Positions 14,251-61,818 of a stretch of 64,000 bases of DNA are shown piece after piece. A program made the position numbers and the translations under genes. The notes beneath the pieces were generated by a model. It searched no databases and had not been told where the DNA came from. It saw only the letters and a list, made by a program, of their open reading frames with translations. Within the stretch, counting starts at the first letter, position 1, and every line of letters starts with the position of its first letter. The stretch lies in contig JAHQWK010000016.1 of assembly GCA_029856145.1 (NCBI GenBank), positions 1 to 64,000 on the forward strand, written 5' to 3'. This DNA is from Promethearchaeia archaeon (GTDB lineage: Archaea; Asgardarchaeota; Lokiarchaeia; Sigyniarchaeales; SOKP01).

Positions 14251-14357
14251 TGGCGGGCTATAGGGGAATCGAACCCCTGACCTTTCTTTTTAAGGGAGAT
14301 CTTCCCATAAATGTCAGGTTAAAAGCCTGCTGCGCTACCTGCCTGCGCCAATAGCCC
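14251..14357 (-). tRNA. tRNA-Lys(UUU) with 30-nt non-canonical intron at about 44/45 (14283-14312); CCA encoded
   Basis: Acceptor GGGCUAU/AUAGCCC, anticodon loop CUUUUAA, T-arm AGGGG-UUCGAUU-CCCCU; hairpin insert at the start of the variable loop. Confidence 0.9.
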
Positions 14358-15576: not shown

Positions 15577-15666
15577 GCCTCTGTTGCTTAGTGGTATAGC
15601 GTCAGATTCGTATTTAAATATAGATGAAAAATCTGAAGATCGGGGGTTCAAATCCCCCCAGAGGCT
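15577..15666 (+). tRNA. tRNA-Thr(CGU) with canonical 37/38 intron of 18 nt (15613-15630)
   Basis: Acceptor GCCUCUG/CAGAGGC, anticodon stem UCAGA/UCUGA, central helix UUCG/UGAA, bulges UA|U and AA|A. Confidence 0.92.
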
Positions 15667-15670
15667 CTAT

Positions 15671-28293: not shown

Positions 28294-29766
28294 TTATCCC
28301 TTTACTACACCTATTGGAACTAGTCTTACTATTTTTTCAACGATTCCAAGATCTTGGCTGACCTGAACAACTTGATCTATATCTTTATATGCACCAGGGG
28401 CCTCTTCAGCGATTATCTTCATCGAAGCAGCTCGTATCATGATACCTTGTTTACTTAAATTGTCTTTAACTCGCTCTCCCCAATATTTCTTAGTAGCTTT
28501 TGTTCTAGACATTACTCTTCCAGCACCATGCGCTGTAGAACCAAATGATAGATCCATTGCATTCTTTTTACCAACACAGAGATAAGATGCAGAACCCATC
28601 GTTCCTGGGATTAATACAGGTTGTCCTATAGATTTATACTCAGGCGGTAGATCAGGATGATTTGGCGGAAATGCTCTTGTAGCACCTTTTCTATGAACAT
28701 TTAATTTCATTTTTTTACCATCAATTTCATGTTCTTCTATTTTTAAAATATTATGGCAAACTCCATAGATTAAATGTAAACCTAAAGTGTCTATATCCTT
28801 TCTTAAGGTATTCTGAAAGGACTCTCTTAACCAATGCGTAATTAATTGACGGTTGGTAAATCCAAAATTAGCTGCACATGCCATTTGTTTTAGATAGTTC
28901 TGTGCTTCAGGTTTATTTGCTGGAACACATGCTAATTCTCTATCAGGAACTTTTATATTGTATTTTTTCATTGCTTGTTCGATATTGCGCAAAGAATCTG
29001 TACATACTTGATGTCCAAGAGCTCTGCTCCCTGTATGAACCATAACAGTAACTTGATTCTTCTCATGTATTCCTAAAGTTTTAGCAATACTTTGATTATA
29101 AATTTCATTAACTTTTTGTATTTCTAGAAAGTGATTTCCACTTCCCAAAGAACCAAGTTGTTTTATAGCACGTTGTTTTGCTTTTTGTGAAACTAAACTA
29201 GCATCTGCATCCTTTAAACATCCATTTTCTTCTAAATGTTTAAGGTCCTCATCAAAAGCATAATCGTTGTCTACTGCCCATTTCACACCATTATTTAAAA
29301 CTTTATCTAATTCTGAATAGCTTATATTTAGTTTACCTTTCGATCCCAAACCTGAAGGAATATTATCAAAGATTGTATTCAACAGATTAGGAAGCACACT
29401 CTTAATATCTTTAAGAAATAAATTTGATCTTAATAATCTTACACCACAATTAATATCATATCCAACACCCCCGGGAGAAATCATTCCATTCTCTGCGTCT
29501 GTCCCAGCAACACCCCCGATACAAAAACCATATCCCTGATGAGCATCTGAAAGAGCAATAGCATGTTTTTGTATCCCAGGTAAACAGGCAACATTACAAA
29601 TTTGATCTAGAGTCCTATCTTGCTTTATTTTCTCTAAAATATATTCATTAGCATAAATTTTTACGGGGACCCTCATCTGAAATTTTTCGATATTTCCTTT
29701 AACCCGTGTCATTAATGTCTTTGGAGGAATCTCATAGATATTGTCATCAATTTTATTAACATTCAT
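28294..29766 (-). CDS. rtcB: RNA-splicing ligase RtcB
   Basis: DAHQGYGF, GVGYDINCG, GSGNHFLE, HTGSR, HRKGAT, HGAGR. Confidence 0.98.
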   Translation of the reverse strand: MNVNKIDDNIYEIPPKTLMTRVKGNIEKFQMRVPVKIYANEYILEKIKQDRTLDQICNVACLPGIQKHAIALSDAHQGYGFCIGGVAGTDAENGMISPGGVGYDINCGVRLLRSNLFLKDIKSVLPNLLNTIFDNIPSGLGSKGKLNISYSELDKVLNNGVKWAVDNDYAFDEDLKHLEENGCLKDADASLVSQKAKQRAIKQLGSLGSGNHFLEIQKVNEIYNQSIAKTLGIHEKNQVTVMVHTGSRALGHQVCTDSLRNIEQAMKKYNIKVPDRELACVPANKPEAQNYLKQMACAANFGFTNRQLITHWLRESFQNTLRKDIDTLGLHLIYGVCHNILKIEEHEIDGKKMKLNVHRKGATRAFPPNHPDLPPEYKSIGQPVLIPGTMGSASYLCVGKKNAMDLSFGSTAHGAGRVMSRTKATKKYWGERVKDNLSKQGIMIRAASMKIIAEEAPGAYKDIDQVVQVSQDLGIVEKIVRLVPIGVVKG

Positions 29767-41310: not shown

Positions 41311-41921
41311 TTAGAACTCTAAAAATCCAGGATCATCAAAAATATCATCAATTTTTCGTTCTTTCTTTATCTTTGTATCCGTTTCAGCAAATAAGGATTC
41401 TTCATCAGTTCTAACCCCCCGTTCTAGTTCTTCAGTATCACGTTTTAATAATGCATCTTTTTCAAGCTGTTTATATTTTTCCGATCGTATTTTCCAATTA
41501 TCAACTTCATCCAAATTAACATTATCTTCTTCTAATAATATCGCTGCTTTTGTTTTACATAGATCTGATAAAATAGAATAGGATAGAATAATATCTCCCC
41601 ACTCATTATCTTCTTTTAAACTAACAATCCGTTTTTCTAATCTTAGTAATTCTTGGTCTGCATAATATATATCAATAAAATCCCCAAAAGCATCAACGGG
41701 TTCTGAGATTGAATTTACTAATACTTCTTTTGTTAAATCACAATTTCCACATTTTACAGTAGCAAAGGCACCTTTCTTCTTAATATCAGTGACTTTTACG
41801 CTTTTTTCACCGCATTCCATGAAAAATTGGAAATCAATTATTTTCATTCTGGACAGGTGAAAATTTTTGGTACTCTCTTAACTCTTTTTGGTGATACTTG
41901 TTTACGTTTTCTTCTTCCCAT
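41311..41921 (-). CDS. elf1: Transcription elongation factor Elf1 with C-terminal extension; two exons (41847-41921, 41311-41814), 192 aa after splicing
   Basis: Exon 1 MGRRKRKQVSPKRVKRVPKIFTCPE; exon 2 CGEKSVKV...CGNC...EPVDAFGDFID. Confidence 0.9.
41815..41846 (-). other. 32-nt BHB intron in elf1 mRNA
   Basis: Exon helix UUUUCACC/GGUGAAAA, central CCAG/AUGG, bulges AA|U and AA|U, inner hairpin GAAAA-U-AAUUG/CAAU-UUUUC. Confidence 0.85.
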
Positions 41922-60110: not shown

Positions 60111-61112
60111 TTGACGATTGAAAAAATCCTTCAAAGGATTGATGGTTTATTAAAGAAGGCTAATTATGAAACATTAGCACTGGGAAATTTTGCTATTAAT
60201 AAATGTAAATTCTGTTTTGATCTTTTAGTTAAAAAGGAAGATTTGGTCTTTAGTGTTAAAATCTTTCCCAATATAGATAACTTAAACCAAAGCGTTATTC
60301 ATGATATTAAATCTTTATCCTTAATCCTTAAATCAAAGCCCTTATTAATTGGAATCAGAAATCGGTATCAAAAATTAGAAGACAATACAATTTATGTAAG
60401 AGAAGGCTTACCCTTTATAACACTTAATACATTTGAGAATATACTCAATGAACAGTACCCTCATATCTTAGCAAGAAGAGGTGGTGGAGTAGTATTTTTA
60501 GATGGTACATTAATGAAAATTTTAAGAGAGAAACATTTAATAACACGAAAAGAACTTTCAGAAATCTTAGGAGTGACCAAGCGAACTATTTCTTCATATG
60601 AAAATGAATCTATGCGACCTTCCGAGAAAATTGCTGAAAAAATATTAGAAATCTTAGAAAATAATAATCTCTTTAAGAAAATGAATCTTTTTGAATGGAC
60701 TATTAAAGATAATATAGATGAAAAAGGAGTCTTAGAAGAAAAAGAATTAAGCCAATTTGAATCGCATGTTCAAGATATAATAAAAGATATTGGGCTTTCT
60801 TCTTATTGGTATAAAAAAGGATCTATTCCTTTCAAATTATCTTTATACTCTCAATCAGATAAAATAAGGTTAGATGACTTTTATCCTCTATTTTCTGGTA
60901 TATCTGAAGAACAGGGAAAAATTAATCAAATGAGCTTTCAATGCTTGAAGTTGTTTACAGATTTATTCCATAAAAATTCACTTTTCATAATTGATAATGA
61001 TATTAAAATTCCTGAGCCGTTTAAAAATGCAAATATCCCTATAGTTAAAATTAAAAATTTAGAAAAAGTTGATGACGAGGAAGAATTCGTTGAACTCATT
61101 CAAGAATCTTGA
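60111..61112 (+). CDS. Archaeal HTH transcriptional regulator (nuclease-like domains flanking an XRE HTH)
   Basis: CFDL...NIDNL, ARRGG, TRKELSEILGVTKRTISSYEN. Confidence 0.85.
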   Translation: MTIEKILQRIDGLLKKANYETLALGNFAINKCKFCFDLLVKKEDLVFSVKIFPNIDNLNQSVIHDIKSLSLILKSKPLLIGIRNRYQKLEDNTIYVREGLPFITLNTFENILNEQYPHILARRGGGVVFLDGTLMKILREKHLITRKELSEILGVTKRTISSYENESMRPSEKIAEKILEILENNNLFKKMNLFEWTIKDNIDEKGVLEEKELSQFESHVQDIIKDIGLSSYWYKKGSIPFKLSLYSQSDKIRLDDFYPLFSGISEEQGKINQMSFQCLKLFTDLFHKNSLFIIDNDIKIPEPFKNANIPIVKIKNLEKVDDEEEFVELIQES

Positions 61113-61818
61113 GGATGAAATAGAACTAATATGTGGGATAGACGAGGCTGGTAGAATTTAATTCGCTTCGAATTATATGTTAAAAGGCTCTGTCTTAGGC
61201 CCTATGGTTTTATGTGGAATTTGTTTCAATAAATCAAAAATAAACTTATTATCTGAAATAGGTGTTAAAGACTCAAAAAAATTATCTCCTATAAGGAGGA
61301 ATAAATTAGCTAATCTCTTGAAAAATTACTGCCACTCATATAAAATCGTTATAATTAGTCCTCAGGAGATTGATGAGAGAGAAAGTAAAAAAATTACATT
61401 GAATCGACTTGAAGAATTAAAAATGGCAGAGATTATCAACACACTGAAACCAGATGTCATTTTTATAGATGCTGTGGATGTAAATGAAGAAAGATTTGGA
61501 CATTCTATAAAAAAATTATTGAATTATATTCCTAAAAAAATAATTTCTGAACATAAGGCTGATGACATATATCCAATAGTTTCAGCAGGTTCTATTATGG
61601 CTAAAGTTAAAAGAGATTCTCTAATTGAAGAACTTCATAAAAAATATGGAAATTTTGGTTCAGGATACCCTTCTGATATTAGAACAATTGAATTTCTTAG
61701 AAATTATGTAAAAAATAATAAGAAACCACCTAAAATCGCAAGGAAATCATGGAATACAACTAAAAGAATAATAAATGAAGAGTTATCTACAAAAAAAATA
61801 ACTGATTTTCTTAATTAA
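61090..61818 (+). CDS. rnhB: Ribonuclease HII; two exons (61090-61154, 61185-61818), about 232 aa after splicing; start codon uncertain
   Basis: Spliced ICGIDEAGRGSVLGPMV, VKDSKKLS, IDAVD, HKADD, GSGYPSD, RKSW, PIP-like KITDF. Confidence 0.93.
61155..61184 (+). other. 30-nt BHB intron in rnhB mRNA
   Basis: Central UGGU/GUUA, bulges AG|A and AA|A, hairpin AUUUAAUUCG-CUU-CGAAUUAUAU; contains in-frame TAA. Confidence 0.85.

What the first reader, a model, noticed from the sequence alone, without database searches (positions are those of the whole stretch)
61155..61184. BHB intron interrupting the RNase HII catalytic motif (mRNA intron in an Asgard-like archaeon)
Seen: GIDEAGR and GSVLGPMV are separated by a 30-nt insert (AATTTAATTCGCTTCGAATTATATGTTAAA) with an in-frame TAA. 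It folds as an outer exon helix (GACGAGGC/GGCUCUGUC, imperfect), a 4-bp central helix UGGU/GUUA (three G-U pairs), two 3-nt bulges (AG|A, AA|A) and a 10-bp inner hairpin with one mismatch. Established: archaeal EndA cuts after the second bulge nucleotide. Applying that rule gives GGT AG|A GGC = G-R-G, restoring DEAGRG. The best-known archaeal mRNA intron is in crenarchaeal cbf5; I know of none in rnhB. Inference: this organism splices mRNAs with its tRNA-splicing machinery. The ORF track starts inside the insert and misses the catalytic Asp/Glu.
Basis: partly seen in the sequence, partly recalled or inferred. Interest (0 to 1): 0.95.

Follow-up and report, generated by a model that had tools for sequence, protein, structure and literature searches.

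The report
Mini-intron splitting Asgard RNase HII gene
The RNase HII gene of this Asgard archaeon is cut inside its active-site codons by a 30-base insert shaped like a tRNA intron and kept at the same spot in about 80 related genomes, so the message very probably has to be spliced, which the papers I could search report inside a coding sequence for only one archaeal gene (cbf5).

Summary
The 30-nt, stop-containing insert (61155-61184) is real, and removing it restores DEAGRG. It is no artefact or decay: it sits at the same site in 81 of 135 genomes of one Lokiarchaeia family. Unrelated 21-37-nt inserts occupy the same site in several non-Asgard archaea. Across 100 distinct junctions the 4-bp central helix is 96% paired at the predicted cut register (6-54% when shifted). 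All 86 in-frame inserts carry a stop and the other 14 shift the frame. Exon 1 is under purifying selection. The genome encodes a two-subunit EndA and RtcB. Verdict: a cbf5-like mRNA intron cut by the tRNA-splicing enzymes (about 88%). No spliced RNA was seen, and this genome's copy folds weakly (three G-U pairs). Extra findings: one close relative lacks the intron through a roughly 36-nt DNA patch matching a distant intronless allele, and five non-Asgard loci have a LAGLIDADG-like gene directly upstream. I found no paper on it, but this scan has noted the same rnhB intron in at least 14 other genomes.

The parts
61072..61154 (+). rnhB exon 1, ending ...I-C-G-I-D-E-A-G and the first two bases of the Arg codon. 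Start uncertain: TTG 61069, ATG 61072 or TTG 61090 (all overlapping the upstream gene), or a near-cognate codon near 61120-61129
   Evidence: last six codons vary almost only synonymously (0.91 of differences) in 89 family sequences
61141..61146 (+). codons of the first two catalytic acidic residues (Asp, Glu of DEAGRG)
   Evidence: TIGR00729 210.6 bits from model position 1; catalytic role from my own knowledge of RNase HII
61155..61184 (+). 30-nt intron, cut AG|A ... AA|A
61159..61161 (+). in-frame stop TAA (TAA, TAG or TGA at this or a nearby codon in relatives)
   Evidence: 86 of 86 inserts of in-frame length carry a stop
61149..61152 (+). 5' strand of the 4-bp central helix (UGGU); followed by the 5' bulge 61153-61155
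61179..61182 (+). 3' strand of the central helix (GUUA here; ACCA, GCCA, GCUA in relatives); followed by the 3' bulge 61183-61185
61156..61178 (+). inner hairpin: 61156-61164 with 61170-61178, one U-U mismatch, variable loop
   Evidence: three pairs with two-sided changes
61141..61194 (+). imperfect exon-exon outer helix, 61141-61148 with 61186-61194
61177..61179 (+). ATG inside the intron that gene callers take as the start, giving a 213-aa product without the catalytic Asp and Glu
   Evidence: 82 of 122 database proteins start inside the intron
61185..61818 (+). rnhB exon 2
   Evidence: (PF01351 from model position 8)
60111..61112 (+). upstream HTH transcriptional regulator (PRK04140-like), overlapping exon 1; not a homing endonuclease
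28297..29604 (-). RtcB RNA ligase, the presumed joining enzyme (the EndA subunits lie on contigs C11 and C24)

Best explanation
The insert is a tRNA-type (bulge-helix-bulge) intron in the rnhB mRNA. Shown: its borders can form a 4-bp helix between two bulges; cutting after the second base of each bulge restores the Arg codon of DEAGRG; unspliced RNA stops or shifts frame; both exons are under selection; EndA and RtcB are encoded. Inferred: the transcript folds into a relaxed BHB, the two-subunit EndA cuts at AG|A and AA|A, RtcB joins the exons, and only then is active RNase HII made. The stop keeps unspliced message from yielding an enzyme with ten extra residues in the active site. Inferred with less certainty: intron-bearing and intron-free alleles replace each other by short DNA recombination patches.
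For: 81 of 135 family genomes and 50 of 54 in the genus carry the insert, with no hit in the reversed-pattern control. 100 distinct junctions of 21-37 nt, found with patterns that hold no structure term, pair the central helix in 96% of cells at the predicted register and 6-54% at shifts of 1-4. Pair counts on 34 genus sequences: 92% paired, 4 pairs with two-sided change, 0 of 500 shuffles as high, slid controls 24-44%. 86 of 86 in-frame inserts carry a stop and 14 shift the frame. Synonymous share of codon differences: 0.91 in exon 1, 0.44 in exon 2, 0.14 in the insert. Intronless relatives show the clean empty site. EndA alpha keeps the catalytic Tyr/His/Lys and the loop with the Lys that aligns to Aeropyrum EndA; PMC5829648 ties that loop to relaxed substrates and reports it in Asgard. 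Three further BHB-bounded, frame-restoring inserts came out of my own genome scan.
Against: No spliced RNA, peptide or in vitro cut was seen. In this genome the BHB fold is 8.6 kcal/mol above the minimum; the median over 99 junctions is 3.4 when the 3' bulge may be 4 nt. One central pair is broken in 11 of 100 junctions. An RNase HIII-like gene exists, so rnhB may be dispensable. Related genomes are not independent samples.
Confidence: 0.88

Rival explanations
1. Split protein without splicing: exon 1 is made as a short peptide ending at the stop, translation restarts at the ATG inside the insert, and the two pieces assemble into an enzyme.
For: An ATG, GTG or TTG in the exon-2 frame lies inside the insert in 54 of 99 junctions; database proteins mostly start there.
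Against: 45 of 99 junctions have no such start. The ATG bases are paired positions of the motif. The idea does not explain why the 4-bp helix is kept at one register in unrelated sequences.
Confidence: 0.04
2. The gene is inactive or nearly so (splicing absent or negligible in this lineage, whose fold is weak), and the RNase HIII-like protein does its job.
For: A second RNase H2-family gene is present; this copy has the weakest fold class.
Against: Both exons stay open and under purifying selection across the family, at 62-84% protein identity within the genus; dead genes do not keep this pattern.
Confidence: 0.04
3. Ribosomal recoding: the ribosome hops over the hairpin (as in T4 gene 60) or reads through the stop.
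For: A stop-containing hairpin follows the Arg codon directly.
Against: Take-off and landing codons match in only 4 of 99 junctions. Lengths of 26, 28, 29, 31, 32 and 37 nt rule out simple read-through, and the insert does not evolve like protein.
Confidence: 0.03
4. Assembly or sequencing artefact.
For: The genome is a metagenome assembly with 5% contamination.
Against: An independent contig is identical across the site, and about 80 other genomes have diverged copies.
Confidence: 0.005

Closest known systems
cbf5 pre-mRNA intron of Desulfurococcales and Sulfolobales (Watanabe 2002; Yoshinari 2006; Yokobori 2009, PMC2738675)
   Same: Short insert in a coding sequence; unconventional BHB at the borders; predicted cuts after the second bulge base restore the frame; host has a hetero-oligomeric EndA; lost in some lineages.
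   Different: Different gene and phylum. The rnhB site is occupied in several phyla by inserts of unrelated sequence. It is one of several such inserts in the genome. Splicing is shown for cbf5 but not here.
BHB intron in the 5' UTR of Haloferax volcanii HVO_1309 (PMC7714728)
   Same: An mRNA cut by the tRNA splicing endonuclease.
   Different: Lies outside the coding sequence; that paper names cbf5 as the only other mRNA case.
Non-canonical tRNA introns of Asgard archaea (bioRxiv 10.64898/2026.10.13.758758)
   Same: Similar size and motif; same presumed enzymes; repeated gains with unknown route.
   Different: That study covers tRNA genes only (the word mRNA does not occur in its text). I found no copy of the rnhB intron elsewhere in this genome.
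Collaborative homing of phage introns with free-standing endonuclease genes (described in PMC10448857); LAGLIDADG-carrying BHB introns of archaeal rRNA genes (own knowledge; see PMC3082918)
   Same: A LAGLIDADG-like gene lies directly upstream of intron-bearing rnhB in five non-Asgard loci.
   Different: The intron is enzyme-spliced, not group I. No such gene was found in this family. Cleavage was not tested.

Membership tests
Archaeal BHB (EndA-spliced) mRNA intron, cbf5 type | 4-bp central helix between exon 1 and the intron 3' end, flanked by bulges | tested here: met
   96% of cells paired at the predicted register in 100 junctions; shifted registers 6-54%
Archaeal BHB (EndA-spliced) mRNA intron, cbf5 type | Cuts after the second base of each bulge restore the reading frame and conserved motif | tested here: met
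   DEAGRG restored in all 35 genus loci first examined and for lengths 21-37 nt
Archaeal BHB (EndA-spliced) mRNA intron, cbf5 type | Flanking inner and outer helices | tested here: met
   Inner helix 9 bp with two-sided changes; outer helix present but imperfect
Strict canonical hBHBh' motif | Two 3-nt bulges with continuous helices, as the favoured fold | tested here: inconclusive
   Strict fold 8.6 kcal/mol above the minimum here; a relaxed form with a 4-nt 3' bulge is within 1 kcal/mol of the minimum in 34 of 99 junctions
Archaeal BHB (EndA-spliced) mRNA intron, cbf5 type | Host encodes a hetero-oligomeric EndA with the broad-specificity loop, and an RNA ligase | tested here: met
   Two EndA subunits; alpha aligns to Aeropyrum EndA through the loop; RtcB full length (PMC5829648)
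Archaeal BHB (EndA-spliced) mRNA intron, cbf5 type | Spliced mRNA, or in vitro cleavage at the predicted sites | not testable with these tools
   No RNA run holding this gene was listed
Group I or group II intron | Ribozyme core of several hundred bases | tested here: not met
   30 nt, one hairpin; Rfam finds only two tRNAs in the window
Homing (mobile) intron | Associated endonuclease gene in or beside the intron | tested here: inconclusive
   Present beside five non-Asgard copies; not found with this query in 135 family genomes
Homing (mobile) intron | Endonuclease cuts the intron-free allele and flanks are co-converted | tested here: inconclusive
   Flanks travel with intron state, but pairing constraints also explain part of this; cleavage untested
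RNase HII (TIGR00729) | Full-length match including the N-terminal DEAGRG motif | tested here: met
   210.6 bits against a cut-off of 123.3, model positions 1-205, when read through the insert

The most novel reading that the evidence does not exclude
The rnhB mini-intron is a mobile, enzyme-spliced element that has entered the same catalytic codon in several archaeal phyla by DNA-level homing with a free-standing LAGLIDADG nuclease. In this Asgard family it persists without the nuclease as one of many BHB introns in mRNAs, so routine mRNA splicing by the tRNA machinery exists in close archaeal relatives of eukaryotes.
Probability: 0.5. Interest if true: 0.9.

Novelty: new member of a known kind. 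Interest (0 to 1): 0.74.

Why it matters
In the literature I could search, splicing inside an archaeal coding sequence is documented for cbf5 only. A conserved second case in a core DNA-maintenance gene of Asgard archaea, with more in the same genome, makes EndA/RtcB a general step in gene expression there and a possible control point. It offers a prokaryotic parallel to eukaryotic RtcB-joined mRNA splicing (XBP1/HAC1). It gives a handle on the open question of how BHB introns arrive and leave, because filled and empty alleles of one site can be compared across phyla. In practice, public annotations of these genomes carry a truncated RNase HII without its catalytic residues.

Tried and rejected
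RNA evidence: no RNA holder was listed for this stretch. Two runs labelled metatranscriptomic (probably DNA) did not cover the gene. The joined junction of this clade's type was not in the JGI contigs, and no full-length protein of that type was among the homologues or cluster members; none of this bears on expression. Full-length proteins close to intron-bearing ones have altered flanks and read as intron-free DNA alleles, not transcripts. A protein that seemed to read through the insert (P0284) came from a gene caller reading TAG as Gln; the DNA has the stop. Idea that the intron was copied from a tRNA D-loop intron, because UGGUAGA resembles a D-loop: no similar sequence in the genome; unsupported. 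A motif-only genome census was weak: 185 frame-rescuing candidates against 189 in a reversed control, 16 against 9 with a strong hairpin, 5 against 1 after a filter chosen afterwards, so I give no genome-wide count. The homing-nuclease search in the family was empty and had no positive control genome in the same run. The bacterial promoter scan was at chance level. One weak joint in a DNA run (skip of 83, one contig, depth 2) came from a related strain and was ignored. Several scripts and look-ups failed on slips.

Full report
Observation. In frame it reads G-I-D-E-A-G-R-I-stop, and nine codons later G-S-V-L-G-P-M-V. Removing 30 nt from 61155 or from 61156 gives D-E-A-G-R-G; other positions give G-K-G or lose residues. 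The annotated ORF begins at an ATG inside the insert and matches Pfam RNase_HII only from position 8. Read through the insert, the gene scores 210.6 bits on TIGR00729 from position 1 and aligns to solved RNase HII structures with a 10-residue gap inside the motif. From ATG 61072 the spliced product is 238 aa; the true start is uncertain.

Not an artefact. A contig from a 2016 study that is not flagged as the source spans 60812-61423 with no difference. The genome has one rnhB; the only other family hit is a 581-aa RNase HIII-like protein below the rnhC cut-off. Close relatives are recorded as Promethearchaeota (Lokiarchaeia), for example Loki_b32 and AMARA_1S.

Conservation. All 35 genus loci first examined carry the insert with an in-frame stop; one is 29 nt. 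Fifteen rnhB genes from other families of the class have none. A gapped pattern over 400 Asgard genomes matched 81 of 135 in this family (50 of 54 in the genus) and none of 265 others; the reversed pattern matched nothing. The pattern can miss diverged genes, so this means not found, not absent. Intronless family members show a clean empty site. In databases, 82 of the 122 closest proteins start inside the insert.

Structure. With the cut after AG, exon bases -6 to -3 pair with intron bases -3 to -6. This genome has UGGU/GUUA; relatives have ACCA, GCCA or GCUA, and when the exon reads UGGC the partner is G. On 34 genus sequences 92% of cells pair, four pairs change on both sides, no shuffle of 500 reaches this and slid controls give 24-44% (kin inflate the shuffle test). 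A JGI search with only codon patterns and a free gap found 68 loci. Pooled, 100 distinct junctions of 21-37 nt pair the central helix in 96% of cells at this register and 6-54% at shifts of 1 to 4; the 5' bulge is AG|A in 97 (the AG is part of that pattern, but the pattern allowed CG and all 81 hits had AG). All 86 inserts of in-frame length carry a stop and the other 14 shift the frame. A caveat: the strict fold is 8.6 kcal/mol above the predicted minimum here, against 2.8-4.3 for three tRNA introns of the genome. In lineages with G-P-V after the site, a relaxed form with a 4-nt 3' bulge is often the minimum itself; the cut position, two bases after the helix, is the same. The cbf5 introns also have unconventional motifs (PMC2738675).

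Selection. Among 89 family sequences the synonymous share of codon differences is 0.91 for G-I-D-E-A-G in exon 1, 0.44 for exon 2 and 0.14 for the insert. Exon 1 is therefore read as protein and the insert is not. An in-frame start inside the insert exists in only 54 of 99 junctions, and matching hop codons in 4 of 99, which counts against restart and ribosomal bypass.

Machinery. The genome encodes two EndA subunits. The alpha subunit keeps the catalytic Tyr, His and Lys and the loop aligned with Aeropyrum EndA, which PMC5829648 links to relaxed substrates and reports in Asgard. RtcB lies in this window. That these enzymes act on this mRNA is inference.

History of the site. Within the family the intron is patchy: a protein tree needs 8 changes, at least 4 forced by strong branches. 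One intron-free allele (GCA_019057915.1) nests among intron-bearing ones (98/92) and is 96.6% identical to its sister in exon 2. Yet it differs from that sister at 14 of 36 bases around the empty site, where it differs from an 84%-identical intronless gene at only 2 (Fisher p about 2e-10, window chosen after seeing the data). The intron state was thus exchanged with a short DNA patch. One loss is more parsimonious than two gains, and it did not come from a copy of the gene's own spliced mRNA, so such losses do not prove splicing. It rests on one contig and a chimera is not excluded. Most close intron-free alleles use CGN for the split Arg.

Other phyla. The same site holds inserts of unrelated sequence in contigs whose neighbours are named Bathyarchaeota, Nitrososphaerota and Altiarchaeales by their sources, in a group joined to a Thermoplasmatota gene (99), and in DPANN-like contigs. 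In five of these a gene of about 344 aa with weak to passing LAGLIDADG_3 matches and winged helices lies directly upstream (44-69% identical to each other). It was not found with this query in the 135 family genomes. This resembles collaborative homing in phages (PMC10448857) but is untested.

Same genome. My scan recovered further motif-bounded inserts that restore known motifs: uL11, a B12-binding domain and a third gene. The elf1 gene in this window has a 32-nt insert, shared at the same site by 4 of 22 related loci. The scan was too noisy for a count.

Literature and earlier notes. Six searches found no report of an rnhB intron or of Asgard mRNA introns. PMC7714728 names cbf5 and one Haloferax 5' UTR as the known mRNA cases. 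Subscription papers are largely missing from the library. Earlier notes of this scan describe the same rnhB intron in at least 14 genomes and the neighbouring nuclease; I reached both from my own data and do not count the notes as support.

Verdict. A real, conserved, very probably spliced BHB intron in rnhB (0.88): a new member of the cbf5 kind in a new gene and lineage, lacking RNA-level proof.

Noticed in passing
window 41815-41846 (-): elf1 is split inside its first CxxC motif by a 32-nt frameshifting insert; 4 of 22 related loci have 31-nt inserts at the same site and the rest are intact. The central helix is only 3 of 4 paired.
   Followed up: partly
G000 C28:14768 (-, 28 nt), C19:57732 (+, 32 nt), C32:34945 (+, 30 nt): Further BHB-bounded inserts whose removal restores uL11 (GPTGINIK), a B12-binding motif (KPGIDGH) and a third ORF.
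   Followed up: partly
L218 (GCA_019057915.1), about 370-410: Intron-free rnhB allele made of a roughly 36-nt patch that matches a distant intronless relative inside an otherwise 96.6%-identical gene.
   Followed up: yes
L122:810-1841, L127:6327-7379, L148:193-1224, L154:884-1915, L177:416-1447: About 344-aa LAGLIDADG-like plus winged-helix gene directly upstream of intron-bearing rnhB in non-Asgard archaea.
   Followed up: partly
G000 C18:143749-145494 region (L002:583-2328, -): 581-aa RNase HIII-like protein with a long unexplained C-terminal part; scores below the rnhC cut-off.
   Followed up: no
window 14251-14357 (-) and 15577-15667 (+): tRNA-Lys and tRNA-Phe genes with inserts; ARAGORN found only 17 tRNAs in this 97%-complete genome, so many are probably hidden by introns.
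   Followed up: no
window 61069-61112: The exon-1 frame stays open through the last 14 codons of the upstream regulator gene in many relatives, so the two genes may overlap or rnhB may start at a near-cognate codon.
   Followed up: partly
L224 (SRR14702244 contig), 555-1226: A database protein reads through the intron only because the gene caller translated TAG as Gln.
   Followed up: yes
L028 (G021), just after the rnhB junction: The assembly has a run of N right after the intron, followed by a diverged stretch with a TGA; this copy cannot be judged.
   Followed up: no
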